From: Planctomycetota bacterium
GTDB lineage: Bacteria; Latescibacterota; UBA2968; UBA8231
Direction: 5' to 3'
DNA length: 59,840 bases
Assembly: GCA_047616505.1 (NCBI GenBank)
Contig: JBLHGI010000002.1
Coordinates: 1 to 59,840, forward strand
This document shows, piece by piece, positions 25,599 through 58,472 of the stretch (its first letter is position 1; each line of letters opens with the position of its first letter). The notes beneath the pieces were generated by a model that was given only the letters and a program-made list of their open reading frames with translations, was not told where the DNA came from and did not search any database. The translations under genes were made by a program, and so were the position numbers.

Positions 25599-27779
25599 TC
25601 ACTTAATCAGTTCCAACGCCTTTGCCGCTTCCTCATCAGCCAACTCTTCAATAAGCGTCGCCGCACGCTCGACAATAGGCCCACTACCCGGCCCCTCATC
25701 ATCAATCGTTTTGAGCAGGCCCGGCGTATACCACACCTGGGAGCCCTGCGTCCTGCGTTGACCAATGGCGTATTTTCCCATCCAGCGCACATAGCCGAGC
25801 AGCTCTTCGTAGTTTTCGGCGCAGTCCATGCGCACCAGCGCCATCGCCAGCGGCCCCAGCTGTTCTAAATCGGTGGGATAGCGCCGCTTGATCTCCTCAA
25901 ATTCCTTCATCGCCTTGCGCAGCGGTGTCAGACTGCCCGAGGTACAGGCGTGTGGTTTTTCCGGCAATGCCTCTAAGATCTCGCCCACCCGCGGCACCAA
26001 CACCGCAATTAAGTCGGCATCGATTAGCTCCTGCCCCGGCAACGAGCTCACGTCCTCACCGCGCGCTGTCCGCGCCGCCAATAGTGCCTTTTGTGCCGCT
26101 ACGATCACGCCCTGCTGTTCGGCGGCGAGCGGGTTGAGTCCTTCCTCGCTGAGTTCGGCATCTTCGACCAAAAACTCTTCGATAATGCGCTCGGCGCGCG
26201 CGCCACGCGAGACCAGTGCATTGACCATGCCCTGGTACTCAGGCGATACGTCCAGACACAGCGCCGCGCGCACCACGGCTTTCTCCAACTCGCCCATTAT
26301 TTCTCCAGCTATTCCCTCGCTAGCTACATCCCAGGCACTCTCATCCCGTTCTAAATTTTCCAAGAGCTCATTGATCTCCACGCGCTCGACGTGACGGTCG
26401 AGCAGGCGCCCCGCCTCGCCCGCCAAAACCGTCTCCACCTGCGCAAAGAGTTCACCGACGGTTTCTATCGCATTGATGACGTCCATCCGCCGCATATCGC
26501 CCGCACTCGCCTTGGCCGAAACCAAACCAATCAGCACGATGCGCACCCAATCGAGATCTTCCAACTCCAGCTTGCGACGCTTGGTCCGCACATCGACACA
26601 GAGCTGCACGACCGCTTTACAGCGCATAAACTCGGCACCGCGCTCTATAAACAAATAGAGGTTCTTGCGCCGCGACGTCATTTGCCCCAACACGGCGCGC
26701 GCACGCTCCACCAGTAGGGCTTTATAGTACCCGCTGACAAAAATATCGGCGACAAACTCTTCTATCAATCCTTCTATTCCCTGTGGGCCAAAACGAGCGG
26801 CCCAATGACACAGGGCATCGGTCGGCGACTCGGGCAACAGGTCAAAGCGCAGCGCATCGCGATAATCGTGACACGCCTCGTTCATATTCTGCGGCGCCGT
26901 TTCCATGCCGTAGGCCTCAGCCATTTCGTAGGCCGCCGGATGCACGATATCGCGGTCGAGCACCGAGCTACTAGGATAGTTCTGTTCTTCGGCAATCTGC
27001 ACGACCTTCGCCTCACCCCACAGCTCCTCCTGATACGTATTGTAGAGCGCCTTGACAATGGCATCGGGCTCGCTATCGCGAAAGCGCTGCTGCAACTTAA
27101 CGCCCAAACGCCCGTCGCCATCGGCGCGAATCGTATCGAGCAGGCGCTTCTCGTATTCGTAGAGAAACTCGTCCAACTCACTGATCGGCACGTCGATGCC
27201 GCTGTTCTCTTTTTTCTTGATTCGATCGGGGCTCTCGTAGGTGCTGCGATGTTTGTTGCGGTGGCGCACCATGCGGCGCACGGCATTATAGCCGGGCACC
27301 GAGACGTGGCGCTTGAGCATGAGCCGCTTGGCCAGGATTACCAGTTCGTAGAGCAGGATAAAGTCGAGTAACTGCGAGCCATCGCGCACCAAGATCTGCG
27401 CGATAGACCAATAGTCGTAGCCGTTGCGAAAAGCGACATCGAGGATTTTTTCCGGCAGGTAAATCGTGCGGCGGGTGCGGCCAATGTGGATGGCCTGGTG
27501 GTTGCGCACGTCTTTAAAGCAACACAGACCGCGACCAGCCACCAACGTCACGCTGATATTGCGCGCCAACAGCGCATCTAAAAAGTACTCCGGCAGCTGG
27601 CGCACGGCACTGTAGAAGAACTTGACTTGGTCGTGGCCAATATGAAAGCGCGGCAACTTCTCCTCGCCTTCGAGCAGCAGACCATCGCGCACGCGCGTCT
27701 GCCGCCCAAAGACAATCGTCTTCTCCGCCTCTTTCAGCGCCTCGTTGACCTCCGCATGGCTTATATCACCTTCGTGCAC
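25599..27779 (-). CDS. Hypothetical 726-aa soluble protein, last gene of the fliN-fliN-fliG-fliM operon
   Basis: Long uninterrupted ORF. GTG start with AAGGAG 5 nt upstream, and that RBS overlaps the fliM stop (cgcTAAGGAGcgcccGTG). No TM segment, no Walker A and no motif I can recognise. Helix-rich, with an acidic C-terminal half. Confidence 0.8.
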   Translation of the reverse strand: MHEGDISHAEVNEALKEAEKTIVFGRQTRVRDGLLLEGEEKLPRFHIGHDQVKFFYSAVRQLPEYFLDALLARNISVTLVAGRGLCCFKDVRNHQAIHIGRTRRTIYLPEKILDVAFRNGYDYWSIAQILVRDGSQLLDFILLYELVILAKRLMLKRHVSVPGYNAVRRMVRHRNKHRSTYESPDRIKKKENSGIDVPISELDEFLYEYEKRLLDTIRADGDGRLGVKLQQRFRDSEPDAIVKALYNTYQEELWGEAKVVQIAEEQNYPSSSVLDRDIVHPAAYEMAEAYGMETAPQNMNEACHDYRDALRFDLLPESPTDALCHWAARFGPQGIEGLIEEFVADIFVSGYYKALLVERARAVLGQMTSRRKNLYLFIERGAEFMRCKAVVQLCVDVRTKRRKLELEDLDWVRIVLIGLVSAKASAGDMRRMDVINAIETVGELFAQVETVLAGEAGRLLDRHVERVEINELLENLERDESAWDVASEGIAGEIMGELEKAVVRAALCLDVSPEYQGMVNALVSRGARAERIIEEFLVEDAELSEEGLNPLAAEQQGVIVAAQKALLAARTARGEDVSSLPGQELIDADLIAVLVPRVGEILEALPEKPHACTSGSLTPLRKAMKEFEEIKRRYPTDLEQLGPLAMALVRMDCAENYEELLGYVRWMGKYAIGQRRTQGSQVWYTPGLLKTIDDEGPGSGPIVERAATLIEELADEEAAKALELIK

Positions 27780-27788
27780 GGGCGCTCC

Positions 27789-29060
27789 TTAGCGAAAGCC
27801 GTCTTCGCGCTCTGCTGGTAGGGCCCCGGCCACTTTCACCGCATTCAGCCCATGCGCACTGGCGCAGGGCCAACCGAGAAATTTCGCATCGCCGCCGACA
27901 AAGACCGGCACCGGCTCGTCCGTCTTGCGATCCAAACCGACCACATCGCCGACCTTGAGCGCACGCGCCTGTGCCAAACTCAGCTCGCTGCGGCCCAACT
28001 CGGCACACACATCGAGGGCCATTCCGCCCAGACGCAGACGGTTGTCGCGCACGAGCGTATTCTGATTTCCCTGACGCATTTTCACATAGTTCTGCTGCCC
28101 CAAACGCGGCAAGATCGACTCCAGCGTAAAAAACGGATAACACAAGCTGATCAGCCCCGAGGCATTGGTCGAATTGACTTCAAAAGCCAGCAGAATAACG
28201 ATCTCACTGGCCGCCGTAATCTGCATAAACTCCGGATTCGTCTCCAGCTCGATATCGTGAATATTGACCGGAAGAATTGGCTCCCACGTCGCCTCCAAAT
28301 CCTCGATCATTTTCTTGACGACCGTGTTTATTTCGCCAATCTCAATCGGCGTCAGCTGCCGCGCATCGACGCCCTGCGAAGAGCCTTTGCCACCAAAGGC
28401 GCGGTCGACTTGGGCAAACACAACCGGCATGGCAATATCCAGTATCGCCTGTCCGTTGGTCGGCCCGAGCGTAAACTGATACGAGCAGGAAGGGTTCGAC
28501 AAGCTCATAATAAACTCGGCGTAGGTCGTCTGATCGACAAAGGCCGTATCCACATCGACAACCGCACGCATCGCCCCCGACAAAGTAGATGAAAGCAGGC
28601 GCGCAAAATTGTCGTGCAAGTTCTCTAAAGTGCGCAGCTGCTCTTTGTTGACACGCGCGGGGTGTTTAAAATCGTACGACGTGATGATGCGCTGTCCACT
28701 AGCTTTTTGGTGCCCTTTTTTCGCCTTTTCCTCAGCCTCGCGCTTCTGGTTTCCCTCACGCACGCGCCTCATCTCGGCCACTAATTCGACGACTTCTGGA
28801 TAGAGCGCGTCGATTTGTTTCTTGGTGAATTTCTTCTTGGCCGTGCGCGCCCTTTCGACCAGCACTTCCACTAGCTGATCATCGATATCGGCCTCTGGCA
28901 TATCGCTATGTAACACACCCACGACCTGCGTCGTTAACAAGCTGAGATCCTTCTCCTCCAAAGCCAGGCGCTCCACCAACCATTTATTTAGCATCGGGTA
29001 AACAGGCGTACTCACTTCCAATAACTCGTCGATCTCAGTCTGCGACAGTATATCTGGCAT
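27789..29060 (-). CDS. fliM: Flagellar motor switch protein FliM homologue (with extended N-terminal linker)
   Basis: N-terminal MPDILSQTEIDELL matches the E. coli CheY-P-binding peptide MGDSILSQAEIDALL. FliM middle-domain boxes: SYDFKHPARVNKEQLRTLENLHDNFARLL, VDRAFGGKG, LTPIEIGE, LETNPEFMQI. C-terminal SpoA/FliN-type domain: LDVCAELGRSELSLAQARALKVGDVVGLD. Confidence 0.9.
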   Translation of the reverse strand: MPDILSQTEIDELLEVSTPVYPMLNKWLVERLALEEKDLSLLTTQVVGVLHSDMPEADIDDQLVEVLVERARTAKKKFTKKQIDALYPEVVELVAEMRRVREGNQKREAEEKAKKGHQKASGQRIITSYDFKHPARVNKEQLRTLENLHDNFARLLSSTLSGAMRAVVDVDTAFVDQTTYAEFIMSLSNPSCSYQFTLGPTNGQAILDIAMPVVFAQVDRAFGGKGSSQGVDARQLTPIEIGEINTVVKKMIEDLEATWEPILPVNIHDIELETNPEFMQITAASEIVILLAFEVNSTNASGLISLCYPFFTLESILPRLGQQNYVKMRQGNQNTLVRDNRLRLGGMALDVCAELGRSELSLAQARALKVGDVVGLDRKTDEPVPVFVGGDAKFLGWPCASAHGLNAVKVAGALPAEREDGFR

Positions 29061-29072
29061 TTTCAGTTCTCC

Positions 29073-30305
29073 TTAACAAAACTGGTCGTCGGTTTCGCCG
29101 CGCACGATGGTAATCTCGCCTTTTTCCTCTAGCTGGCGCACCTGTTGCACGATGCGCAGCTGCACTTCTTCCACCTCGCTCAAACGCATCGGCCCCAAGA
29201 ACTCCATCTCTTCGGTAATAGCAGTGCGCACTTTCTCCGACATATTGCCGAGCACCTTATCCTTGAGCTCTTCGCGAGCTGCTTTCAGCGCCACGACGAG
29301 ATCCTTCTGGTCGACTTCGCGCATCACGATCTGAATCTCTCGATCCGTGAGCTTGGCGATATCGTGAAAAGTAAACATCAGATTGCGCACGCCCTCGGCC
29401 ACTTGTGGATCTTGCGTATCTATTTGATCCAGCACATTCTTTTCGACCGATGAGCCCGTCATATTCAGCATATCGGCCACGACCTTCGGCCCACCGACAT
29501 CCTGCAACTGGCTGCGCATTTCGCCAAACATAGAGCGCAACGCCCTTTCGGCCCGCTCCACCGTCGCCCGCGTCACATCTTCCATTGTGGCCATGCGGTA
29601 GGCCACATCCGCCTGTAGACGCTCGGGGAAATTATTGAGTATACCACCCGACGAGCCCGCAGGTATCTGCGATAGAATAAAGGCGATCGTCTGCGGATGC
29701 TCGTGGCTGATAAAGGGCGACACCTGATCGGGCCCCGTCTTTTCCAACAATTCCCACGGCGACTCGTCGGCCACCTGCGCTTCGTCCAGTATGCGGCTGG
29801 CCCACCACGGTGCTACTGCTCCGCTCATGAGAGCACGAGCAAGCTTCTCGCCACCCAAATCGAGATATTCGCCGTCTTCAACGCGTTGGCGCACCGTCTC
29901 CAGCGCGTGCATACCCGCGTTGTGTTTGACCGCTTCACAGGCCGCCACCGCTCGCCCCACCTGCGCCGCTTCGTCCTGCTCCAATTGGCGCAACACGCGC
30001 ACACCGACCTCTTGGCCCAGCGCGATAAAAAACGCGGCCACTACTTGTTCCGCACTCATGCCAGCCAACGGTCCTTCGCCACCAGCGCCACCCCGCAACA
30101 AACTGCGCACGACGGCGGCCGCCTCTTGCGCGTGCTGCCAGATATAGGCATGCGTACTATGGGCGGCCATACCTGCGGGCAGGTCTGGAGTCTCGTCGGC
30201 ACGGGTCGCGACGGACCATCCGCGCTGCCCAGCATCCTGCAACGGTTCTACTTCGCCCAACTCTTCTTCCGTCGGCAAGTGGTATACTTTCGCATTTTCA
30301 CTCAT
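29073..30305 (-). CDS. fliG: Flagellar motor switch/rotor protein FliG homologue (with ~80-aa N-terminal extension)
   Basis: Motifs EHPQTIAFILSQ, MFTFHDIAKLTDREIQIVMREVD, LVVALKAAREELKDKVLGNMSEKVRTAITEEMEFLGPMRLSEVEE and LEEKGEI are collinear with E. coli FliG. ATGA overlap with the upstream fliN-like gene. Confidence 0.92.
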   Translation of the reverse strand: MSENAKVYHLPTEEELGEVEPLQDAGQRGWSVATRADETPDLPAGMAAHSTHAYIWQHAQEAAAVVRSLLRGGAGGEGPLAGMSAEQVVAAFFIALGQEVGVRVLRQLEQDEAAQVGRAVAACEAVKHNAGMHALETVRQRVEDGEYLDLGGEKLARALMSGAVAPWWASRILDEAQVADESPWELLEKTGPDQVSPFISHEHPQTIAFILSQIPAGSSGGILNNFPERLQADVAYRMATMEDVTRATVERAERALRSMFGEMRSQLQDVGGPKVVADMLNMTGSSVEKNVLDQIDTQDPQVAEGVRNLMFTFHDIAKLTDREIQIVMREVDQKDLVVALKAAREELKDKVLGNMSEKVRTAITEEMEFLGPMRLSEVEEVQLRIVQQVRQLEEKGEITIVRGETDDQFC

Positions 30306-30571
30306 GAGTCCACCTCTTCTACTTCTACTAAACTCGTGACGCGCACCGCCATCTTATCGGTTACGACCACCACTTCGCCATGGGCAAAATGGTGGCCGTT
30401 GAGCCGAATTTCAAAGGCCTCACCCGCCAGTTTATCAAACTCGATTACGTCCTGCTCTTTTAGTTGATTTACTTCGCGCAGCGATATCTGCTTGCGCCCC
30501 AACTCGCAGCTGACCTGTAAGCGCGCGCTGCCCAAATGCGCCAAGCGCTCTCTTTCTTCATTAGTAGCCAT
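30302..30571 (-). CDS. fliN: FliN-like (SpoA / FliMN_C domain) protein, 89 aa
   Basis: SpoA-domain pattern LQVSCELGRKQISLREVNQLKEQDVIEFDKLAGEAFEIRLNGHHFAHGEVVVVTDKMAVRVTSL. There is a 1-nt gap to the upstream gene. Confidence 0.8.
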   Translation of the reverse strand: MATNEERERLAHLGSARLQVSCELGRKQISLREVNQLKEQDVIEFDKLAGEAFEIRLNGHHFAHGEVVVVTDKMAVRVTSLVEVEEVDS

Positions 30572-30572
30572 T

Positions 30573-30908
30573 TCAGACCTCGCCGACTATTTCCGTTATG
30601 CGCACGCCAAAATTCTCGGACACCGTCACCACCTCACCCCGCGCATAGAGCTTGCCATTGAGCTTTATGTCGACTGGATCGCCGACGCGTTTGTCCAACT
30701 CGATCAACGATTGCTCCCCTATCTTCAACGCATCGTCTAGCGTCTTCGAGGCACGCCCAAGTTCCGCACTCAAAGTCAAAGGCATATCATCGAGACATAC
30801 TCCACCAGCCGCCTTGGCAGCCGCTGGAACAACCGCTGCTTTTTTGGCAGGAGCCTTCTTCGCCGCATTTTTGGCTATCGTCTTTTTTACGACCGCTTTT
30901 GCCGCCAT
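30573..30908 (-). CDS. fliN: FliN-like (SpoA / FliMN_C domain) protein, 111 aa, with N-terminal Lys/Ala-rich tail
   Basis: SpoA pattern LTLSAELGRASKTLDDALKIGEQSLIELDKRVGDPVDIKLNGKLYARGEVVTVSENFGVRITEI, preceded by MAAKAVVKKTIAKNAAKKAPAKKAAVVPAAAKAAGG. RBS AAGGAG lies 8 nt upstream of the ATG. Confidence 0.8.
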   Translation of the reverse strand: MAAKAVVKKTIAKNAAKKAPAKKAAVVPAAAKAAGGVCLDDMPLTLSAELGRASKTLDDALKIGEQSLIELDKRVGDPVDIKLNGKLYARGEVVTVSENFGVRITEIVGEV

Positions 30909-31236: not shown

Positions 31237-31266
31237 TTGACAAAACCACTCCATTGATTATATCAT
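31237..31266 (+). promoter_or_regulatory. Sigma70-type promoter candidate for the XRE-trxA unit (TTGACA-N18-TATCAT)
   Basis: Read directly: TTGACA at 31237-31242 and TATCAT at 31261-31266, about 40 nt upstream of the ATG at 31308. Confidence 0.45.
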
Positions 31267-31268
31267 TA

Positions 31269-31288
31269 TTGATATTAAAATATATCAA
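31269..31288. promoter_or_regulatory. Perfect inverted repeat TTGATAT-N6-ATATCAA (operator-like) just downstream of the -10 element
   Basis: Read directly. Additional TGAT(A/T)T half-sites occur at about 31254 and 31293. A plausible operator for the adjacent XRE-family regulator. Confidence 0.4.
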
Positions 31289-31307
31289 CTGTGATATAAG
31301 GATTTTT

Positions 31308-31541
31308 ATGCCTTTCGACTGTCAGTCCATCAAAAAATTCCGCCGGCATATGCGTCTAACTCAAGCGGAGTTGGCAGAGAGATTGGGCGTACCGCAACCC
31401 ACAGTCGCGCGTTGGGAATCGGCGCGCGCAGCGCCCTGCGCGCGCCATATCGGCATGCTCTGCGATATGGGACGCACCCAGGGTATCAATCCGAGCTTTT
31501 TCTTTCCGAACTTCAGTCACTACGAGCCCCAGGCTCATTAA
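31308..31541 (+). CDS. XRE-family helix-turn-helix transcriptional regulator (77 aa)
   Basis: HTH_3 signature RRHMRLTQAELAERLGVPQPTVARWESAR. The internal ATG at 31308 is preferred over the 31254 start because the upstream codons sit in AT-rich promoter sequence. Confidence 0.75.
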   Translation: MPFDCQSIKKFRRHMRLTQAELAERLGVPQPTVARWESARAAPCARHIGMLCDMGRTQGINPSFFFPNFSHYEPQAH

Positions 31542-31556
31542 TTAAAGGAGAACACA

Positions 31557-31880
31557 ATGGCTGATCTCGCCTCTTTTACCGATGCTAACTTTCAGACAGA
31601 AGTACTCGATTCCGACATACCCGTCGTCGTCGACGTCTTCGCCACGTGGTGCGGTCCGTGCAAAATGATCGCCCCCATCATCGAGGAATTGGCCAGCGAC
31701 TACGCAGGTCGTATCAAAGTCGGCAAACTCGACGCCGACACCGAGCAGAAAACGGCGGCAGAATTTCAGGTCCGCGGTCTGCCAACCGTGCTAATCTTCA
31801 AAGACGGTAAAGTAGCCGACTCGGTCGTCGGTGCCGCCGCTAAAGCGCAGTATATAGAAAAATTAGAAGCCGTGCTTTAA
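31557..31880 (+). CDS. trxA: Thioredoxin
   Basis: 107 aa with active site WCGPCK and the conserved GLPTVLIFKDGK. RBS AAAGGAG lies 7 nt upstream. Confidence 0.95.
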   Translation: MADLASFTDANFQTEVLDSDIPVVVDVFATWCGPCKMIAPIIEELASDYAGRIKVGKLDADTEQKTAAEFQVRGLPTVLIFKDGKVADSVVGAAAKAQYIEKLEAVL

Positions 31881-31978: not shown

Positions 31979-32800
31979 TTAACGCGGCGGCCAAGCGCGA
32001 AACAAGTTACCCTGCGCCTCGCTAAAACGCGCAAACGTATCCTCTCTTATAAAGGGCGGCTCGTCCATCGTGGCGATGTTCTGCGACATCATCCAGTGCG
32101 GACCATAGCCCACGTGCAGGGTCTTGCGCACCTGCTCGGAGCGGTTAGTCAGACCACCGTGACGCAAGTGTTCCGTAAATAAGATCGCATCCCCCGCTTT
32201 CGCTTCTAGCCCTATCATACCCGGCTCGTCGTCCGGATTATTGCCATACGGACAGGGCAGGTTCGACTTATGCGTGCCCGGCACCACACAAAAGGCCCCC
32301 TGTTCATCGCTGCAATCGTGCACAAAATAGACCATGCGCACCATCATGCAGTCGATGCCCGCCTCGCCAAAGCTGTAGCGATACTTCTGGTTGGCCGCCC
32401 GCGATCCCCCGTGGCTAGACGAGGCATTGCCCTTGTAGCGAATGCGAATTTCCGAATTGTTGATCGTCGGCCGCGCTTTGACGATGGCGTGGATATAGTC
32501 CATGCTCTTTTTGTGGTCTAACAGTACGTCAAATGCCGTATCCGCATTCCAAAAATCCTCGACAATCAGCGTTTGCCCCTCGCCCTTGGTGCCCTGCACA
32601 TGGTAACCCTTTTCCAAATTGGCATGGTACTCGGCCCCCCACGCACTGCGTTTGCGCGGCGGCAGGTCGACGTGGGCGAGCGCGTGCTCTTCCAATGCGT
32701 CGGTGGCAGCGCTTAGTTTCTGCACTTCGTCAGTGTCGAGCATATCCTTGATAACTATATACCCCTGGCGATCAAACTCGTAGCTTTCCGTTTCGTTCAT
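31979..32800 (-). CDS. Phytanoyl-CoA dioxygenase (PhyH)-family Fe(II)/2-oxoglutarate oxygenase
   Basis: 273 aa with N-terminus YEFDRQGYIVIKDMLDTDEVQKL, typical of PhyH-family proteins, plus later VPGTHK and HGG motifs. Confidence 0.75.
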   Translation of the reverse strand: MNETESYEFDRQGYIVIKDMLDTDEVQKLSAATDALEEHALAHVDLPPRKRSAWGAEYHANLEKGYHVQGTKGEGQTLIVEDFWNADTAFDVLLDHKKSMDYIHAIVKARPTINNSEIRIRYKGNASSSHGGSRAANQKYRYSFGEAGIDCMMVRMVYFVHDCSDEQGAFCVVPGTHKSNLPCPYGNNPDDEPGMIGLEAKAGDAILFTEHLRHGGLTNRSEQVRKTLHVGYGPHWMMSQNIATMDEPPFIREDTFARFSEAQGNLFRAWPPR

Positions 32801-32874
32801 GGCACTTCCGTTTCCAATTTCTATGCGGCTCGAGCCGTTTATAGTATCCCCCTGTACTTCCGACTAAATTTCTC

Positions 32875-33690
32875 TCATTCAAAATTCAGCAACTTCGCCA
32901 GATTTCCCCCTTTTACTTTATCGCGCGCTACAGCACTAAAGTCCTGCATATGTATATCGACAATATCCGGCGAGCCGCTGCCCCAGACCAAACGCTCTGC
33001 TCCGAAGGCCTCTACCACGCGCTTAGTAAAAGGTCTGGCACTTTCATAGAAGGGCGCATCGCTGGCAAAGTGACTCAGACCGGAGAGTTTCATATAAACT
33101 TCCTTAAACTCGTCGCGATTGCTGCCCAACTCCAGTATGTGGGCAAATTCCACGGCGCTGCCCCACTGCGGTTCGGCCAAATGATCGATCAGCGCCACCG
33201 TCTCTGGTATATCGCGCAGCACCTGCCCAACTTGTTCAGCGTAATCGGGGCCAATATGCAATTCGATTATTAATCCCAGTTCGACCGCTTTTTCCCACAG
33301 CGCACGCACACCCTTTTCGGCAAAACTATCTAAATACATCTCCTTGCCCCGATGCGCATGAAAACGCGTCGCAATTATTTTGGGCTCCTGCGCGACCAGA
33401 TCCTCTAGTTTCTTGGGCGCATCCAGATCGTGGGGATAAAAGAGCGACGTCCCCCTAAAAATCTCCGGCTCACGCGCCAGGCAATCGAGCACCAAACGAT
33501 GGTCATCGCCATAGGGCTCGGGGTGCACAATAACGGCGCGGTCTATGGCCTCTGTCCGCATATGTTCGAGATAGGCCGCCAGCGGATCTTGCGGATGCTG
33601 AGACAGGTCCGGGCGATAAGCCGCCTTCTCGTGCAGCGGATACTTGGCCGTGTCCGGACTAAAAATATGTGTATTCCACTCGACGATCAT
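32875..33690 (-). CDS. Amidohydrolase-2 (TIM-barrel metal-dependent hydrolase/lactonase-like) family protein
   Basis: MIVEWNTHIFS start, AVIVHPE, HIGP and LVWGSGSP motifs. The ATG at 33688-33690 sits just after the upstream stop (33692), so it is preferred over 33720. Confidence 0.7.
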   Translation of the reverse strand: MIVEWNTHIFSPDTAKYPLHEKAAYRPDLSQHPQDPLAAYLEHMRTEAIDRAVIVHPEPYGDDHRLVLDCLAREPEIFRGTSLFYPHDLDAPKKLEDLVAQEPKIIATRFHAHRGKEMYLDSFAEKGVRALWEKAVELGLIIELHIGPDYAEQVGQVLRDIPETVALIDHLAEPQWGSAVEFAHILELGSNRDEFKEVYMKLSGLSHFASDAPFYESARPFTKRVVEAFGAERLVWGSGSPDIVDIHMQDFSAVARDKVKGGNLAKLLNFE

Positions 33691-33691
33691 T

Positions 33692-34909
33692 TTATGCCCC
33701 CTCGGAAAAACCGCGATCAACTTTTAAACGCTGTACCTCGGCCTCCGTCGCATCACCCCGCGCCGGATACGGCCCCCAATGATCGATGGCGCTCCACTCG
33801 GCCCGATCGCTGACGACGACGGTGGCATCGCTGCGCTCCTTCACGCCAACCTTGAGCCGCGTGCCAATCCCCGGCTCCTGCGACGCATACATAAATCCGT
33901 CGCGGATATCTACGTTCGGATCGACAAAGTCGTTGTACCAGCCTTTATAAAAGGAGGGCACGTGCTCCTGCATCATGGCGTTGGCCGAGCTGAAACAGAT
34001 ATGGCCACAGGCAAAGATATTCACCGGCCCCGTGGCGTCATGCGGCGCAAAGGGCACCTGATGCGCCGATGCCAGTATCGCTATTTTGTGCGTCTCGGAA
34101 ATACCGCCGGTCCAAATCAGATCGGGCATGACAATGCGCGCGGCGCCGTTCTCTATAAAAGCGCGCAACTGCCAGCGGCTCAGCAAACGCTCGGAAATAC
34201 ACACCGGGGCCCGCGTCGCCTCCTGCAAACGCCGCAGCGCCTCCGGATTTAACAGCGGCATCAAGTCTTCCTGCCACATCATCTCGTAGGGTTCCATCGC
34301 CTGGGCTATGCGGATGGCGCAGGGCAGATTCCACTTGCCGTGGCCGTCGTTGGCAATCTGCATGTCCATGCCCACCGCGTCGCGGATCTCGCGGATAGGT
34401 TTTAGCGCGCGGTCGAGGTCACCCGGATCGATATACTGGCCATCGCTGGCAATAGCTAGACCAATGGTCGGCCCCCCTTTCATGGCGGTGATGCCCTCGT
34501 CGAGCAACTCTTTCGCCAGATCGGCCGCGCCATCGTAGGGAATGCCCGTGGCATAAACGCGAATGCGCTTGCGCACGGCACCGCCCAGCAACTCATAGAT
34601 GGGCATCTGCGCCGCCTGCCCCTTGATATCCCACAGCGCCATGTCCAGGGCCGATATCGCGCGCATTTCACCGCCGCCAAAACCAGCGTGGTCCGACAGG
34701 CGAAACATCGCCTCCCAGTGGCGCTCAATTTCGAATGGGTCGCGGCCAATGAGCAATGGGCCAAAAAAATCGTGCACGGCGGCCTGTACTACCGTCGGTG
34801 CGTAATACGTTTCCCCCAGCCCAACTAACCCCGTGTCCGTGTATACTTGCACCCAAATGACCTGAGCTTGTTCAGCGACGCGAATCGTTTCTATCCTGGC
34901 AATTTTCAT
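33692..34909 (-). CDS. Enolase-superfamily enzyme (mandelate racemase / D-galactonate-dehydratase-like)
   Basis: MKIARIETIRVAEQAQVIWVQVYTDTGLVGLGETY N-terminal capping domain; ALDMALWDIKG. The ATG at 34909 has TAGGAGG 5 nt upstream, so it is preferred over 34966. Confidence 0.85.
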   Translation of the reverse strand: MKIARIETIRVAEQAQVIWVQVYTDTGLVGLGETYYAPTVVQAAVHDFFGPLLIGRDPFEIERHWEAMFRLSDHAGFGGGEMRAISALDMALWDIKGQAAQMPIYELLGGAVRKRIRVYATGIPYDGAADLAKELLDEGITAMKGGPTIGLAIASDGQYIDPGDLDRALKPIREIRDAVGMDMQIANDGHGKWNLPCAIRIAQAMEPYEMMWQEDLMPLLNPEALRRLQEATRAPVCISERLLSRWQLRAFIENGAARIVMPDLIWTGGISETHKIAILASAHQVPFAPHDATGPVNIFACGHICFSSANAMMQEHVPSFYKGWYNDFVDPNVDIRDGFMYASQEPGIGTRLKVGVKERSDATVVVSDRAEWSAIDHWGPYPARGDATEAEVQRLKVDRGFSEGA

Positions 34910-53251: not shown

Positions 53252-54469
53252 TCAGCGCCTCATCGCTAGCGGATTTACCATCAGCGGCCGCTCCTCTAAA
53301 ACGCCGGGGGGACGCATCACCGGAAACTGGGCCTCTAACCCCTGTAAGAGCAGCATCGCCGGCGAGTGCAGAACCAAACGCACAGCGGGAAAACGCCCCA
53401 CGAGATAGGCGGCAATATCACTCGGGTAGTGCCGCTTGTCGCCCACGCCATCGCCGTTGCGGTCCCAACCAACGTAGTCGCTCCAATAATTCCCGCTCCA
53501 AACCAGCGACGTATGATTCTGATAGTTTAGCTGCTGGCGATTATCGACAAAGGCATTACCCGCTACCAAGTTTTCGGGAGAATCCGAGACCAGTATGCCA
53601 ATTTCGTTAGCCGCGACGAGGTTGCCCCGCAGTGTATCAAAGCTGCAGCCGCTGAAGAAAAAACCGTCCTGACTGCTCTGCGTATCGTTGGCTTCAATTC
53701 GGCTATTGTAGAGGTTGCGCAGGAGAATGCCGTGCGTGTGGCTGGCGCGCACTTCGTTTTCGAGAACTTGTATGCCCTTCGAATACATCAGTGCAATACC
53801 GACCGACGAGCTATCCGTATAGTTGCCGACGACTCTGTTGTGATGCGAGTACATATAGTGGATGGCAAAGCGCGTGCGGTGAATGCGGTTGCGCGCGATC
53901 AGGCAGCCCGTCGAATTGGAAATGTAGACACCGTCGCGCCCTTTCTCTATATAATTATCGAGCACCGCGCCGTTTTTTACGTTGAAGAGATGGATGCCGT
54001 TGCCCAGATCGGATATAATGGCCTCGTCGTCGCGCCCCTCGACGCGGCAGCCTGCGATATGGGGCTCGTCTGCCGCATCGACCCAGATGCCAAAACCGCT
54101 TCGGTCTATTTGCACGCCGATAATGCGCGCGCCATCGGCCTCGCGATCGACCCAAATACCACTATGCTTGCCGCTCACGTCTGTGCCGCTGCCCGTCACG
54201 CGCAGATTCTCCACCGAGATCGCAGCGGCCATCAGCGCCAGCGTATGCCCCGAACCACCGCCGTCGACAACCGTTCCGACCCCTTGCCCGCGGATCGTCA
54301 GCGCCTTGTCGACGCGTGCACTGCCATAGTGCCCAATGCTCAAATCTAACGTATCACCAACGGCCGCCGCATCGACGAGTGCCTGTAGGTCTAGCGGCGC
54401 ACTAAGCGCGACACTAACACTTACGAGCACACAGAACAGGCTAAGAAGCAACGCGGTCGCCTTCTTCAT
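53252..54469 (-). CDS. nosD: NosD periplasmic parallel-beta-helix copper-maturation protein
   Basis: Signal peptide and repeated right-handed beta-helix units (GIWVD.., NGIHLF.., FAIHYMYS.., HGILLRN..). Operon position after nosR. Confidence 0.9.
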   Translation of the reverse strand: MKKATALLLSLFCVLVSVSVALSAPLDLQALVDAAAVGDTLDLSIGHYGSARVDKALTIRGQGVGTVVDGGGSGHTLALMAAAISVENLRVTGSGTDVSGKHSGIWVDREADGARIIGVQIDRSGFGIWVDAADEPHIAGCRVEGRDDEAIISDLGNGIHLFNVKNGAVLDNYIEKGRDGVYISNSTGCLIARNRIHRTRFAIHYMYSHHNRVVGNYTDSSSVGIALMYSKGIQVLENEVRASHTHGILLRNLYNSRIEANDTQSSQDGFFFSGCSFDTLRGNLVAANEIGILVSDSPENLVAGNAFVDNRQQLNYQNHTSLVWSGNYWSDYVGWDRNGDGVGDKRHYPSDIAAYLVGRFPAVRLVLHSPAMLLLQGLEAQFPVMRPPGVLEERPLMVNPLAMRR

Positions 54470-56510
54470 ATTTCTCCCAGATCTCGATCTTTAACAACGG
54501 CGGACAGACCTCTTCATCGCTCATCGTATTCGTGCACTCCAAACAGCCGAAACAGGTCTTGGGATCGATCTCACCCTGCGCATTAATGGCTCGCGTCGAA
54601 CAACCCTTGGCGCAAATATTACAGGTAGTGCAGAAGTTTCGCCGCGGCAGTCTGAATATTTGAAAACGAGACAGAATAGCCAAATAAGCACCCAGCGGAC
54701 ACAGATAACGACAGAAGAAACGCACCGTAACGGCACCCATAATAAATAGCCATGACCAATAGAGCACCAGATACCAGGGCCTATTCGTCACGCCCACTAA
54801 CCAGGTCGTCTTAAAAGGTTCTATCTCGGCTAACATCTCAGCCAAGTTGAGCGAAAAAAGCGACACGGTCAAAAGCGAGACGAATATAAAGTAAGGGAGA
54901 TACTTCAAACGGTCGTGCCAACTAGCGGGCATCTCATATAACTTGTGCCATTTTTTTGGCACGAGTTTGTTGCGCACAAAATGCGTCAACTCCAACATGC
55001 CACCGTAGGGGCATATCCAGCCGCAGAAAGGACCGCGCCCCCATAACAACGTGCCCACCGTAATCATAAGCCAAGAGACAAAGAGAAATGGTTCCGTCAG
55101 AAAGAGCCCCAAACCGCTGCCCGAGCGCAGCACATCGACAAAGGTGAAAATATTGACAACAGACGGCTGCCCCTTCTGCCCAATGCCGAGCAGTAGAATC
55201 GAACAAGCGATAATAGCTAGGTGGAAATACTCGAGGAATTTGCGATTTTTCGAGATGCGCTCGCGCAGCGCAAAGGAGAGCAAAACAATCGCCCACAGCG
55301 CGATATAGAGACCGATCCACACCTTTTTCCCAGACCAAATGCGCGCCGCCATAGAGGGGCTAGTCAATTCGCCAAAGGCAGCGGGTGGAGCGATGACGTA
55401 TTCTGCGGGCATTTCGTAGGGCACCTTGAAGTGCATAAATTTTTTTGATTTAGACGTCTCGTGACTGCGCTCCGTCACCAGCACTTCCAACTCCCAGGGC
55501 AGCGCGCCATTAAAAGCGTCATTGGGCACGATATAAATTGCTTTTTCACCTATATGCGGCGCATCTTCTAAAACGATGCGAAACTGGTAGTGATAGTCGC
55601 TGTCGCGAAAGCGAATAATCTCCAAGCCCTGCGTCAGCTGCAAACGATCAAAAATGCCGCCGCGCACAAAGCCCGAACCGCGAAAAGAGAAACTGCCATT
55701 ATTGAGTATCACCAACAGCGCCTTGCCCGGATGCGATGCCATCAGCGCTTGGTACGCCTCTTCGCCCAATAGGTTCGCACCCAGCGAGGGCTGGTTGAGA
55801 ATGCCGACATAGAGGTCCAGCCAATCGTCTTCATTCGCATACTCCTGGCCGCGCACCTCGGCGGCGCTCAGCGACACGTGCTCTAAGAGCCCCTTGCCCA
55901 TTAATTGCTGCCAGCCCAACATCTCCATCTGCTCGCTAATACGCGCTTTAGTCTTTCCCCCGACGGCTAGCAGCCCAATTTCCTGTGCCACGATCTTTGC
56001 CGCCGTAAATACAACTTGATCAGCCACCAATGCCGTCACGGTTGCCCCCGATACACCATCGAGCAAAATCTTCGACTCGCCGGCTATATTTTCCAAGAGC
56101 AGATCTTCTATATGCCGCCCTTCGAATTGGTCGATATAATCGTGTAAGACTTTCTCGGGGATTCCGACTAACAAGATGGGCTCGTGATGATCCATGAGGT
56201 CGGCGCGTTCAATGGTGCCAGTAGCGGAGAGAGCTACTAAAATCTCCAGTGGTTTGCCCGAATAGGCCACCATGTCCACGAACTCATGCGTGAGAAAAAC
56301 AAAACCAACTCGCTCCCCGTCCACGCGCGCTTCCATCACTGGCTTACCGGCCATTTCTATAGCCTGCCATTGCGCTCCGGCAAAGACGTCGGGAACATGC
56401 TCTTGCGGCAGACAAATAGGACGACCATCGCGCAGTTCAAGATGGGATACCGCTTCAACAGGAAGGGCAGTCGCTAGCAGTCCCAGCAGGCACGCAAGGG
56501 CAATAGACAT
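54441..56510 (-). CDS. nosR: NosR membrane flavo-iron-sulfur protein
   Basis: Periplasmic FMN-binding domain with flavinylation motif LLDGVSGATVTA, a polytopic region with CGWICPYG and CRYLCPLG motifs, and C-terminal ferredoxin motifs CTTCNICAKGC and CFGCLEC..CPP. Confidence 0.9.
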   Translation of the reverse strand: MSIALACLLGLLATALPVEAVSHLELRDGRPICLPQEHVPDVFAGAQWQAIEMAGKPVMEARVDGERVGFVFLTHEFVDMVAYSGKPLEILVALSATGTIERADLMDHHEPILLVGIPEKVLHDYIDQFEGRHIEDLLLENIAGESKILLDGVSGATVTALVADQVVFTAAKIVAQEIGLLAVGGKTKARISEQMEMLGWQQLMGKGLLEHVSLSAAEVRGQEYANEDDWLDLYVGILNQPSLGANLLGEEAYQALMASHPGKALLVILNNGSFSFRGSGFVRGGIFDRLQLTQGLEIIRFRDSDYHYQFRIVLEDAPHIGEKAIYIVPNDAFNGALPWELEVLVTERSHETSKSKKFMHFKVPYEMPAEYVIAPPAAFGELTSPSMAARIWSGKKVWIGLYIALWAIVLLSFALRERISKNRKFLEYFHLAIIACSILLLGIGQKGQPSVVNIFTFVDVLRSGSGLGLFLTEPFLFVSWLMITVGTLLWGRGPFCGWICPYGGMLELTHFVRNKLVPKKWHKLYEMPASWHDRLKYLPYFIFVSLLTVSLFSLNLAEMLAEIEPFKTTWLVGVTNRPWYLVLYWSWLFIMGAVTVRFFCRYLCPLGAYLAILSRFQIFRLPRRNFCTTCNICAKGCSTRAINAQGEIDPKTCFGCLECTNTMSDEEVCPPLLKIEIWEKYEEGDRVAS

Positions 56511-56609
56511 AACGCAATAACTCTTTCTTAGAATGGGGACAGAATAAACATAAGCACAGCAGCGCCGCGCGCGGCAACCAAGACCGCACGCGACGTGCTA
56601 TATAGCAAC

Positions 56610-58472
56610 TTAACTGACGATAAAACGGCCGCGCATTTCGAGGTGAAGCGCGTGACAAAACCACGGACAATAAAACCAGTAGACGCCCACCTTATCAGCC
56701 GTAAATGTAGCTGAAACCGTCTCCTGGGGAGCAATGCCGAAGTTTATATCATAGTGCGATAGATTGAAACCATGACATAAATCGTCGACCATATCGAGGT
56801 TCGTCAAGACCATCGTCACCTCGTCGCCCTTCTTTACGCGAATCTCGCCTAGACCGAAGGTAGGAGCGACGCTCGTCATAAAGACCGTCACCTTATTGCC
56901 TTCGCGGAAGACCTGATTCGTCGCCTCCAATTGGACACCGTGTTTCTCCGCCAACTTGCGTTCGAAATCAAACTTGGCGTCCGTGCGATCCCAGCGCTTC
57001 TTGGGCTGGAACGGACCGAGCGATGCGATGATGGCATCGTGTGGCTCAGAGTGGGTAGGCGAGTCGTGTACGATCTTCATCTTCTCACCCGAGACATCGA
57101 CGAGCTGTTCATTTTCCGGATGGAATGGCCCCACCGACAGGAAGCGATCCTTGGCAAATTTATTAAGCGCTATCAACCACTGGCCATCGGCCTTCTTGGT
57201 CTCGCTATTGGAAGCATTGATATGGCCGATCTGGTAGTGAATATCGAGTTTGTCGAGGATCGGATTTTCACCGGCCACCGCCTTGGCAATATCCCACTTG
57301 ACCACAGCCGAATCCAAGAACAGCGACGTATAGGCATTGCCGCGGCCATCAAAGGCCGTATGTAGCGGTCCCAAGCCCACTTCTGGCTCGGCGACTACGC
57401 AGTCGCGCGGTTTGATCTGGCCGGCAAAAGCGGCATCTATCTTTTGCAAGTCCACCACCGAACAAGTCGGCGATAGCTTGCCCGAGCAGATGGCGTAGCG
57501 CCCCGTCGGGTCTACGTTGACACCGTGCGGGCTTTTCGGGATCGGGATATAGAGCGTATAGGGATTGCCCTCTACGCGGCCATCGATGACGGGGACCTTC
57601 GAATCACCGATAGTAAAGGTCTTGCCAGCGGCCACCGCCTTTTCGATCTCGGCGATATTAAACACGACTAACCAGTCCCGGTCGTTGCCCATCATCTCGG
57701 CCAAACTCATGCCGCCCTCGCTGTTGTAGCAAGTGCCCATCGAGTATTTGCCCTCGTAGTCCGTCGCACACAAATCTAGATTGCCCTTAATGGCGACCTG
57801 CCACTTCACCGTCATTTCCTTGGCATCGATGCAGGTGTGCAGCGCCACATAGGATTCCAAGTCGTCGGCCGTCTGACCATTATTATCGATCGGCGTGGCA
57901 AACTCCGCATTGCAGTAGACATCTTTCAGCGTATGGCGCGATGGAAAAATGCCGTGCGTGCCCTGACAGTTGGGAATCTCGACAATGGCGTCGGTCTCCA
58001 TATAATCCAAGCGAATTCGCGCCAAACGAGCATGCGACTTGTCATTTACAAAGCCGTATTGTCCATCGTACCAACCGTCTTTGTAGGACAGGTGAAAGTG
58101 GTGCGTATCACCGGTCTTATACTCGCCGATAAGCTTCTTGCTATGATTGGTGATCCCATGGCCATAGGTGCAGTCAAAATTGAAGACGGGAACGCGTTTG
58201 AGCACACGCATCGACGGAATTCCGAGAATGCGCACCTCGCCGCTCTGACCACCTGACCAGAAGCCATAATAATCATCGAGTTCACCCGGCGGCACGTGAG
58301 GCGAATGCCCCTTAGCCGCACCCTGCGCTTCGACTGGCGCTACCGCACCGCCAACCAAGGCCGTTGCCGACAGAGCCAAACCGCCAAGACCACCCATTTT
58401 GAGCATGTCGCGCCGCGACACCCCTTCCTTCTTTTCTTGCTCGTGCTCTTTTCCTTGTTCTTGTTCTTTCAT
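56610..58472 (-). CDS. nosZ: Nitrous-oxide reductase NosZ, Tat-dependent (clade I-type leader)
   Basis: Twin-arginine leader SRRDMLKMGGLGGLALSA, seven-bladed propeller region, and C-terminal CuA site YCPWFCHALHLEM. RBS GGAGGG lies 5 nt upstream. Confidence 0.97.
   Translation of the reverse strand: MKEQEQGKEHEQEKKEGVSRRDMLKMGGLGGLALSATALVGGAVAPVEAQGAAKGHSPHVPPGELDDYYGFWSGGQSGEVRILGIPSMRVLKRVPVFNFDCTYGHGITNHSKKLIGEYKTGDTHHFHLSYKDGWYDGQYGFVNDKSHARLARIRLDYMETDAIVEIPNCQGTHGIFPSRHTLKDVYCNAEFATPIDNNGQTADDLESYVALHTCIDAKEMTVKWQVAIKGNLDLCATDYEGKYSMGTCYNSEGGMSLAEMMGNDRDWLVVFNIAEIEKAVAAGKTFTIGDSKVPVIDGRVEGNPYTLYIPIPKSPHGVNVDPTGRYAICSGKLSPTCSVVDLQKIDAAFAGQIKPRDCVVAEPEVGLGPLHTAFDGRGNAYTSLFLDSAVVKWDIAKAVAGENPILDKLDIHYQIGHINASNSETKKADGQWLIALNKFAKDRFLSVGPFHPENEQLVDVSGEKMKIVHDSPTHSEPHDAIIASLGPFQPKKRWDRTDAKFDFERKLAEKHGVQLEATNQVFREGNKVTVFMTSVAPTFGLGEIRVKKGDEVTMVLTNLDMVDDLCHGFNLSHYDINFGIAPQETVSATFTADKVGVYWFYCPWFCHALHLEMRGRFIVS

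What the first reader, a model, noticed from the sequence alone, without database searches (positions are those of the whole stretch)
25599..27779. 726-aa protein with no recognisable motif, translationally coupled to fliM
Its GTG start has an AAGGAG RBS that overlaps the fliM TAA stop, which argues for stoichiometric co-expression with the switch proteins. By eye it has no TM helix, signal peptide or P-loop. It resembles none of FliF, FliH, FliL, FliY, CheC, CheZ, FlhF, FlhG or PilZ. The N-terminal ~170 aa is basic and mixed alpha/beta (VTLVAGRGLCCFKDVRNHQAIHIGRTRRTIYLPEKIL). The remainder is long, acidic and helical. It could be a novel C-ring accessory or an effector component.
Basis: partly seen in the sequence, partly recalled or inferred. 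Interest (0 to 1): 0.75.

Follow-up and report, generated by a model that had tools for sequence, protein, structure and literature searches.

The report
Orphan-family protein trailing a flagellar switch operon
The 726-residue protein encoded right after fliM is a real gene from a previously undescribed protein family confined to Latescibacterota, but it occurs in several copies per genome, mostly away from flagellar genes, so nothing shows that it is a dedicated part of the flagellar switch.

Summary
A 726-aa ORF lies on the minus strand at 25599-27779. It starts at GTG, and its AAGGAG ribosome-binding site overlaps the fliM TAA stop. It is the last cistron of an isolated fliN-fliN-fliG-fliM operon. 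It matches nothing in Pfam, NCBIfam, PHROGs, PADLOC or PDB sequences. Two confident AlphaFold models (pLDDT 85 and 88) have no significant Foldseek match in PDB or BFVD.

The "C-ring accessory" reading is only partly supported. The family is small: 195 clusters among 1.84 billion representatives. It is restricted to Latescibacterota-type MAGs and has 2-4 paralogs per genome, each in its own conserved neighbourhood. fliM-X adjacency was read directly in six loci (X 47-100% identical) and inferred from matching contig lengths for four more, but:
- the same Amidohydro_2-PhyH locus carries X without the fli cassette (L008, L015, L018);
- that locus also carries the cassette without X (L071);
- the cassette sits elsewhere without X (L072);
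- X is coupled just as tightly to PhyH where the cassette is missing.

Most likely X is a soluble protein with enzyme-like conserved ends and a variable helical middle. In this clade it is co-expressed with the switch proteins but probably works independently of them. A lineage-specific motor role is not excluded (about 0.2-0.25).

The parts
25599..27779 (-). Gene X: 726-aa soluble protein, founding member of an uncharacterised Latescibacterota-restricted family
   Evidence: ORF and translation. 86 homologues and 195 clusters, none named. No family hit. AlphaFold pLDDT 85.2, pTM 0.74.
26745..27779 (-). Conserved N-terminal module (residues 1-345): alpha/beta subdomain (1-120) plus helical bundle. 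Carries most invariant residues, including H8, N12, R92, H98, G100, Y107, W124, D277, H280, H304, D305 and D308.
   Evidence: Alignments A1 and A2. Separate model pLDDT 87.8, pTM 0.86. No significant PDB fold match; weak leads to selecase and anthrax lethal factor only.
25980..26744 (-). Variable all-helical middle region (residues ~346-600), the part that diverges most between paralogs
   Evidence: Mean column conservation is 0.21-0.37, against 0.6-0.78 in the N-terminal 150 residues, and gaps reach 48%. Single-sequence BLAST to distant paralogs covers only ~47% of the query. All helical in the model.
25599..25979 (-). Conserved C-terminal module (residues ~601-726): helices plus a beta hairpin at 675-684. 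R650 is invariant in A1; P606, P635, D652 and Y657 are near-invariant.
27785..27791 (-). TAAGGAG: the fliM stop codon overlapped by the Shine-Dalgarno sequence of X, 5 nt upstream of the GTG start
   Evidence: Sequence read directly.
27789..29060 (-). fliM (423 aa), with the CheY-P-binding N-terminal peptide and a ~100-aa insertion before the FliM domain
   Evidence: PF02154 4.7e-50; TIGR01397 231 bits. Sequence.
29073..30305 (-). fliG, long form (410 aa) with an ~80-aa N-terminal extension
   Evidence: FliG_N/M/C domains; TIGR00207 268 bits. EHPQT motif. Long and short forms.
30302..30908 (-). Two tandem fliN genes (111 aa at 30573-30908; 89 aa at 30302-30571) that open the operon
   Evidence: PF01052 9e-22 and 2.5e-21.
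31979..33720 (-). PhyH-family dioxygenase (31979-32800) and Amidohydro_2 (32875-33720). These neighbours mark the orthologous locus in genomes with and without the fli cassette.
   Evidence: Pfam. tblastn 64-92% identity across loci.

Best explanation
X is a soluble cytoplasmic protein of a previously undescribed, multi-paralog family restricted to Latescibacterota.

Shown:
- It has a strongly conserved N-terminal module (residues 1-345) rich in invariant His, Asp, Arg and Tyr.
- It has a conserved C-terminal module (residues ~600-726).
- A fast-diverging helical middle separates the two.
- In the window it is the last cistron of the fliN-fliN-fliG-fliM operon and is translationally coupled to fliM.

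Inferred:
- The conserved ends form a common, probably metal-dependent, catalytic or ligand-binding core shared by all paralogs.
- The variable helical middle sets partner or substrate specificity.
- The paralog next to fliM is co-expressed with the switch proteins because the fli cassette and X both occupy the slot downstream of Amidohydro_2-PhyH. X is not an obligate structural subunit of the C-ring.
- Its biochemical activity is the family's general one and does not depend on the flagellar motor.
For: No known family or fold.

The family is small and taxon-restricted. It has 2-4 loci per MAG, for example JABJJN01 with L023, L034, L048 and L067, and the 6.7-Mb chromosome OZ244235 with L039 and L042.

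Distinct paralog subfamilies each have their own conserved non-flagellar context.

Invariant polar residues are shared by all paralogs, whether fli-linked or not.

All four combinations exist at or near the PhyH locus:
- PhyH-fli-X in the window, L069, L006, L011 and L070;
- PhyH-X in L008, L015 and L018;
- PhyH-fli without X in L071;
- fli elsewhere without X in L072.

X starts 3-7 nt after the PhyH stop in fli-less loci, as tight as its coupling to fliM. In L067 X has decayed to a frameshifted remnant while Amidohydro_2-PhyH remain intact.
Against: fliM-X adjacency persists down to 47% X identity while the genes downstream of X differ in every locus (GH5, a Na/H exchanger, MotA/ExbB-like genes). 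This is the behaviour expected of functionally linked genes.

P0014, an X outside the main fli-linked clade, shares an 11,805-bp contig length with a long-form FliG and a MotA-FliG_C fusion.

In L011 X lies between fliM and two MotA/ExbB-like genes. In L027 a different X paralog is followed 46 nt later by two FliG_C-domain genes.

The catalytic reading rests only on the conservation pattern. No motif, family or fold match supports it.
Confidence: 0.55

Rival explanations
1. One reading: in this clade X is a genuine lineage-specific accessory or effector of the flagellar switch. It would dock onto FliM, FliG or FliN, or onto the MotA-FliG_C fusion proteins encoded nearby in related genomes. It would modify or regulate the switch and be made in fixed proportion through translational coupling.
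For: The RBS overlaps the fliM stop. MotA-FliG_C fusion genes lie upstream of the cassette in L006 and L010, and MotA/ExbB-like genes lie directly after X in L011. FliG or FliG_C genes lie near two other X paralogs, in L023 and L027.
Against: The cassette occurs without X (L071, L072) and X without the cassette (L008, L015, L018, L004, L014, L012, L013) at comparable divergence. Most paralogs have no flagellar neighbours. Coupling to PhyH is equally tight. There is no similarity to any known switch-binding domain: FliMN_C, CheC, PilZ and FliG profiles all fail. By a rough estimate that assumes about six FliG_C-domain genes per 5-Mb genome, one or two FliG_C genes within 10 kb of 57 unrelated loci is what chance would give. 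That estimate is my inference, not a tool result.
Confidence: 0.23
2. X belongs functionally with the Amidohydro_2-PhyH pair, for example as an enzyme, scaffold or regulator of a small-molecule catabolic pathway. The fli cassette would be an insertion that split that operon.
For: Amidohydro_2-PhyH-X with 3-7 nt spacing in L008, L015 and L018. Amidohydro_2-X in L004 and L014. PhyH-family genes also sit divergently 60-360 nt upstream of another X subfamily in L031-L034. PhyH-family ORFs account for 26 of 1079 ORFs in the flanks.
Against: PhyH genes appear highly expanded in these genomes, so adjacency may be chance; no genome-wide background could be measured. Other X subfamilies have no PhyH or Amidohydro_2 neighbour. 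L071 keeps Amidohydro_2-PhyH without X. X has no recognisable metabolic-enzyme fold.
Confidence: 0.12
3. X is cargo of mobile or defence islands, a fast-evolving multi-copy gene with a variable recognition region, and landed next to fliM by chance.
For: Some copies lie among transposases, toxin-antitoxin genes or recombinases (L001, L002, L004). The family is multi-copy with a variable middle region.
Against: No PADLOC or PHROGs hit, and no homologue on any plasmid or phage record. The largest subfamily sits in a stable housekeeping neighbourhood (aminotransferases, DHFR, Mla) in about 18 genomes.
Confidence: 0.05

Closest known systems
FliY / CheC / CheX (CheY-P phosphatases encoded with, or fused to, switch proteins in Bacillus and Thermotoga)
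   Same: A cytoplasmic protein encoded in the same operon as fliM and fliN. It could in principle act on the CheY-FliM axis, because the FliM here keeps the CheY-P-binding peptide.
   Different: No CheC or FliMN_C domain hit. X is twice the size of these proteins. Most family members are not next to flagellar genes.
Motor effectors that bind FliG/FliM/MotA (YcgR and other PilZ proteins, EpsE clutch, MotI)
   Same: The hypothesised role is the same: a soluble protein that regulates the rotor.
   Different: No PilZ or glycosyltransferase domain. No evidence of c-di-GMP binding. Those effectors are usually not encoded inside the switch operon (my own knowledge).
Zincin-like fold: minigluzincin selecase (PDB 4qhf) and anthrax lethal factor (1pwv, 1j7n)
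   Same: These are the only recurring structural leads for the N-terminal alpha/beta subdomain. Selecase gives TM 0.45-0.50 normalised to the target, over 85-89 aligned columns, rmsd 3.7 Å, 20% identity. Lethal factor aligns over ~330-370 columns.
   Different: Foldseek E-values are 2-5 and probabilities at most 0.33, which is not significant. No conserved HExxH or HxxEH motif exists; scattered matches in some members fall in non-conserved columns. At the position of the would-be active-site helix the sequence is P-E-x-x-L.
HD-domain phosphohydrolases (H...HD...D metal site)
   Same: Invariant H280 and H304-D305 lie 24 residues apart on consecutive helices, with D275, D277 and D308 nearby. This resembles an HD-type metal site.
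   Different: No Pfam HD-family hit from any of 46 members, even at E<=5. No HD-domain structure appears among the listed Foldseek hits. This is a resemblance of motif only.

Membership tests
Flagellar switch proteins (FliM / FliN / FliY, SpoA-type FliMN_C domain) | Presence of a FliMN_C (PF01052) or FliM (PF02154) domain | tested here: not met
   X has zero Pfam and NCBIfam hits, while its neighbours score 2e-12 to 4.7e-50 in the same searches. None of 46 family members hits these models at E<=5.
FliG / MgtE_N-like armadillo-repeat rotor proteins | Profile similarity to the FliG_N, FliG_M or FliG_C domains | tested here: not met
   hhalign of the X profile (A1) against a 23-sequence FliG profile (A3) gives probability 0.04 and E 0.92. 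No FliG structure appears among the listed Foldseek hits.
CheC / CheX / FliY and CheZ phosphatases | CheC-type domain or CheZ domain | tested here: not met
   No Pfam or NCBIfam hit. The S/D-x3-E-x2-N motif is not present at the conserved N-terminus, by inspection.
PilZ / YcgR-type motor brakes | PilZ domain with RxxxR and D/NxSxxG motifs | tested here: not met
   No Pfam hit for X or for any family member.
Zincin metallopeptidases | HExxH (or HxxEH) zinc-binding motif on the active-site helix | tested here: not met
   The window protein has no such motif. Matches in a few homologues fall in non-conserved columns.
Zincin metallopeptidases | Zincin fold: mixed beta sheet, backing helix and active-site helix | tested here: inconclusive
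   Selecase gives TM 0.45-0.50 normalised to the target but E 2.3-5.2 and probability 0.21-0.33. Anthrax lethal factor gives E about 2.
HD-domain metal-dependent phosphohydrolases | H...HD...D motif within an HD-domain helical fold recognised by family profiles | tested here: inconclusive
   H280 and H304-D305 are invariant. However, there is no HD-family Pfam hit and no HD-fold match among the listed hits.
Known anti-phage defence proteins | Match to a PADLOC model, or location on mobile elements | tested here: not met
   PADLOC gives 0 hits. PHROGs gives 0 hits. Plasmids and phages give no tblastn match.
Dedicated C-ring accessory (operational definition) | Co-occurrence and synteny with fliM/fliG wherever either partner is present | tested here: not met
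   The cassette occurs without X in L071 and L072. X occurs without the cassette at the same locus in L008, L015, L018, L004 and L014. Synteny holds only in a subset.
Dedicated C-ring accessory (operational definition) | Physical interaction with FliM, FliG or FliN | not testable with these tools

The most novel reading that the evidence does not exclude
In a subset of Latescibacterota, X is one component of an unusual, self-contained rotor-stator gene module. The module would comprise a MotA-FliG_C fusion protein, extra MotA/ExbB-like subunits, two FliN, a long-form FliG with an N-terminal extension, a CheY-responsive FliM, and X. It is encoded apart from the rest of the flagellar genes. X would act as a new enzyme-like regulator or assembly factor of this module. 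It would have no counterpart in model flagella and possibly a new fold.
Probability: 0.18. Interest if true: 0.78.

Novelty: categorically new. Interest (0 to 1): 0.45.

Why it matters
Three points.

1. X defines a protein family with no detectable sequence or structural relative, despite a confident structure model. That makes it a candidate new fold and a candidate new enzyme class from an uncultured phylum.

2. If X does act on the switch, it would be a new type of flagellar motor regulator, in a lineage whose C-ring genes are organised unlike any model system.

3. The negative result is useful in itself. Tight translational coupling and adjacency to fliM are weak evidence of function here. 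The same gene is coupled just as tightly to a dioxygenase gene in sister genomes, and the fli cassette is found without X.

Tried and rejected
Family and sequence searches
- Pfam, NCBIfam, PADLOC and PHROGs on X gave nothing.
- Pfam on all 46 aligned members at E<=5 gave only scattered noise such as TPR and PIN_5, with at most 3 members per family.
- A PDB sequence-profile search gave a best E of 0.043, to a de novo designed helical protein. I rejected it as helical-composition noise.
- tblastn of X against plasmid and phage records found no match.

Structure searches
- Foldseek of the full-length model against PDB returned only generic alpha-solenoids (IFIT5, Nup170, importins), with best E 0.34.
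- Foldseek of the residue 1-350 model against PDB had a best E of 1.2.
- Foldseek of the full-length model against BFVD had a best E of 0.18.

Ideas tested and dropped
- X as a divergent FliG-like helical protein was rejected by hhalign (probability 0.04).
- X as a zincin protease was rejected at motif level.
- The CheC-type active-site motif was checked by eye and is absent.

Searches that added little
- The promoter and terminator scan around the operon found no more sites than in shuffled sequence.
- A metagenome scan with X alone returned only two loci; both were fli-linked.
- Pfam on short or odd-architecture family hits from the exhaustive search found only Reg_prop repeats in P0196, which was not informative.
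- A literature search found nothing on natural MotA-FliG_C fusions or on this family.

Not possible
Full report
OBSERVATION

The ORF is real. It lies at 25599-27779 on the minus strand and encodes 726 aa from a GTG start. On that strand the junction reads CGC-TAA-GGAG-CGCCC-GTG. The AAGGAG Shine-Dalgarno sequence (27790-27785) therefore overlaps the TAA stop of the upstream gene, 5 nt before the start codon.

The upstream gene is a bona fide fliM. It scores 231 bits on TIGR01397 against a cutoff of 219.6, and 4.7e-50 on PF02154. It carries the canonical CheY-P-binding N-terminus MPDILSQTEIDELL. It is preceded by fliG (TIGR00207 268 bits; EHPQT motif) and by two tandem fliN genes. The operon is fliN-fliN-fliG-fliM-X.

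None of the other ~45 larger ORFs scanned in the 59.8-kb window is flagellar. The flanks encode PhyH, Amidohydro_2, MR/MLE, Opp and ABC transporters, a GH5-like protein, RND efflux proteins and nosZ/nosD.

The compositional claims hold:
- no P-loop and no HExxH;
- no convincing transmembrane segment;
- residues 1-170 have pI 9.3 and the remainder has pI 4.8;
- beta strands occur only in residues 1-109 plus one hairpin at 675-684.

WHAT X IS

X matches nothing in Pfam, NCBIfam, PADLOC or PHROGs. Scanning all 46 aligned homologues individually at E<=5 gave no consistent family either.

The word-indexed search of 5.8 billion proteins found 86 relatives. All are unnamed or "hypothetical". Where a source names an organism it is Latescibacterota, or a MAG labelled Gemmatimonadota. 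An exhaustive profile search of 1.84 billion cluster representatives found only 195 proteins at E<=0.001, many of them fragments. The window's own FliG is 100% identical to a protein that NCBI names as from a Candidatus Latescibacterota MAG.

AlphaFold2 with a 46-sequence alignment gave a confident model (pLDDT 85.2, pTM 0.74). It shows an N-terminal alpha/beta subdomain, then an all-helical body. A separate model of residues 1-350 was better still (pLDDT 87.8, pTM 0.86).

Neither model has a significant Foldseek match:
- full length against PDB: best E 0.34, generic alpha-solenoids;
- N-terminal module against PDB: best E 1.2;
- full length against BFVD: best E 0.18.

The only recurring leads for the N-terminal module are zincin-like. 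Selecase 4qhf gives TM 0.45-0.50 on the target over about 85 columns, with probability 0.21-0.33. Anthrax lethal factor also recurs. The family has no conserved HExxH, so I treat this as a lead and not a classification.

Conservation is strongly bipartite.
- Residues 1-150 and 250-340 are highly conserved. Twenty residues are invariant across the larger 61-sequence alignment, among them H8, N12, R92, H98, G100, Y107, W124, D277, H280, H304, D305 and D308. Y121, D122, Y123, D275 and R311 are invariant among 46 sequences and at least 90% conserved among 61.
- Residues ~600-700 are also conserved. R650 is invariant in A1, and D652 and Y657 are near-invariant.
- Residues ~350-600 are poorly conserved and rich in indels.

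An invariant set of His, Asp, Arg and Tyr shared by every paralog suggests a catalytic or metal/ligand-binding core. A variable helical region between the conserved ends suggests a specificity module. Both points are inference only.

IS X TIED TO THE FLAGELLAR SWITCH?

Evidence for a link. The arrangement fliN-fliN-fliG-fliM-X recurs in these loci:

| Locus | X identity to window |
|---|---|
| L069 | 90% |
| L006 / L007 | 61% |
| L010 | 49% |
| L011 | 48% |
| L070 | 47% |

X starts 4-9 nt after the fliM stop in these loci, while the genes downstream of X differ from locus to locus. On an NJ tree, P0014 lies outside the main fli-linked clade.

Evidence against a link.

1. The family is multi-copy. 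The GTDB genome scan returned 56 loci with 2-4 loci per MAG. Examples are JABJJN01 (L023, L034, L048, L067), CALFPI01 (L015, L020, L027) and the 6.7-Mb chromosome OZ244235 (L039, L042).

2. Clustering of flanking ORFs together with a tree shows several orthologous subfamilies, each with its own conserved non-flagellar neighbourhood. One has aminotransferases, DHFR and Mla genes in about 18 genomes. Another lies next to topoisomerase VI-like genes (my reading of the example sequences, not checked by a family search). Another has a divergently transcribed PhyH.

3. The window's locus is marked by Amidohydro_2-PhyH, which are 64-92% identical across the loci that carry both genes. At this orthologous locus:
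 - X is present with no fli gene in L008/L009, L015 and L018 (Amidohydro_2-PhyH-X) and in L004/L005 and L014 (Amidohydro_2-X);
 - X has decayed to a frameshifted remnant in L067;
 - the full cassette is present with no X in L071, whose PhyH is 82% and FliM 67% identical to the window's.

4. In L072 the cassette sits at another locus without X, although an X paralog lies 250 kb away on the same contig.

5. In the fli-less loci X starts 3-7 nt after the PhyH stop, with an AAGGA inside the end of PhyH. Tight coupling is therefore a property of X with whatever gene lies upstream. It is not a sign of stoichiometry with FliM.

6. X presence does not track the long FliM (408-423 aa: window, L006, L071) or the short FliM (324-333 aa: L010, L011, L072).

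7. The X profile has no similarity to a FliG profile.

X and the fli cassette are thus independently gained or lost units that often share one genomic slot.

RESIDUAL HINTS OF A MOTOR CONNECTION

These keep the accessory hypothesis alive.
- In L006 and L010 the gene upstream of the cassette is a MotA_ExbB + FliG_C fusion. This fusion is itself a sizeable family, about 430-440 aa, with both Pfam domains precomputed. Its N-terminal half is about 44% identical to the ordinary 257-aa Latescibacterota MotA.
- In L011 two small MotA/ExbB-like genes directly follow X.
- In L027 a different X paralog is followed 46 nt later by two FliG_C-domain genes.
- In L023 a stand-alone fliG lies 2.6 kb from another X paralog.

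These genomes evidently hold several FliG_C-domain genes. My rough estimate, which assumes about six such genes per 5-Mb genome, is that one or two of them within 10 kb of 57 unrelated loci is what chance would give. I therefore give these hints little weight.

Published genome analyses report flagellar genes in Latescibacteria single-cell genomes and in related marine bins (PMC4454575, PMC5596340). The cassette is therefore probably part of a real flagellum whose genes are scattered.

MECHANISM AND VERDICT

Best-supported explanation (confidence about 0.55). X is a soluble, enzyme-like protein of a new Latescibacterota-restricted paralogous family. It has a shared conserved core and a variable helical specificity region. 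In this clade it is the last cistron of the switch operon and is co-translated with FliM. Its activity is the family's general one, and it is not an obligate C-ring subunit.

Rivals:
- a true lineage-specific switch or stator accessory (about 0.23);
- a partner of the Amidohydro_2-PhyH pair (about 0.12);
- mobile or defence cargo (about 0.05).

No known family passed a membership test. By the evidence available here the family is new, with no relatives by sequence or fold, but its function is unresolved. Interest is moderate. The gene is nonetheless a clean target for a possible new fold, and the surrounding Latescibacterota motor genes are unusual.

Noticed in passing
window 27789-30908 (minus strand); also L071 9395-12524 and L072 9424-12291: fliN-fliN-fliG-fliM is a conserved four-gene cassette in Latescibacterota, encoded apart from all other flagellar genes; none lies elsewhere in the 59.8-kb window. 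Its FliG is a long form of ~410-430 aa, with an ~80-aa N-terminal extension carrying a conserved LPxG..STHA..W motif. FliM comes in a long version (408-423 aa, with a ~100-aa insertion after the CheY-binding peptide) and a short version (324-333 aa).
   Followed up: partly
L006 5609-6880; L010 2363-3883: Just upstream of the cassette lie natural fusions of a MotA/ExbB-type stator membrane domain with a FliG_C rotor domain. They belong to a sizeable family, ~430-440 aa, with PF01618+PF01706 precomputed on many members. The N-terminal half is ~44% identical to the ordinary 257-aa Latescibacterota MotA. A stator subunit carrying its own rotor torque domain is not mentioned in the papers searched.
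   Followed up: partly
L011 7252-7776 and 7793-8245; L023 3101-4067 (minus strand): Pairs of very short MotA/ExbB-like genes (150-180 aa, 55% identical to each other in L011). In L011 they lie directly after X. In L023 they lie 6 kb from another X paralog. No MotB-like partner was seen.
   Followed up: no
L023 14452-15489 (minus strand); L073 10001-11086: A short-form fliG (345-361 aa, 52-58% identical to the window FliG) stands alone among metabolic genes, with no fliF or fliH next to it. Contigs of sample ERZ26167216 that carry a long-form cassette (L072) and a short-form fliG (L073) have similar coverage (10.5x and 11.5x). One genome may therefore hold both forms.
   Followed up: no
L027 8740-12217: A different X paralog (736-aa ORF) is followed 46 nt downstream by two small FliG_C-domain genes (144 aa and 284 aa). 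The sister locus L041 lacks them.
   Followed up: partly
L067 7543-8310: After an intact Amidohydro_2-PhyH pair, X is reduced to four frameshifted fragments with residues ~128-566 deleted. It looks like a pseudogene, in a MAG that keeps three other paralogs (L023, L034, L048).
   Followed up: no
window 31254-31880 (plus strand): An HTH_3 regulator (95 aa) and a thioredoxin (107 aa, WCGPC) are transcribed divergently between PhyH and the first fliN. They occupy the ~1.07-kb PhyH-fliN gap, whereas PhyH and fliN are only 110-190 nt apart in L011 and L071.
   Followed up: no
window 30573-30908 (minus strand): The first FliN has a 36-residue Lys/Ala-rich N-terminal tail resembling histone H1 (MAAKAVVKKTIAKNAAKKAPAKKAA...). 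Pfam gives a weak HC2 hit at E 0.008.
   Followed up: no
window 53252-58472 (minus strand): A nitrous-oxide reductase cluster: a NosZ-like protein with propeller repeats and a cupredoxin domain, a 4Fe-4S protein, NosD and an ABC ATPase. It suggests that this Latescibacterota organism can reduce N2O.
   Followed up: no
L012 4933-7989; protein P0196: In L012 a 1018-aa sensor (Reg_prop beta-propeller, Y_Y_Y, SpoIIE/PP2C) ends 11 nt before an X orthologue. P0196 (411 aa) combines Reg_prop repeats with a region matching the X C-terminal module. This may be a domain fusion or a gene-calling artefact.
   Followed up: no
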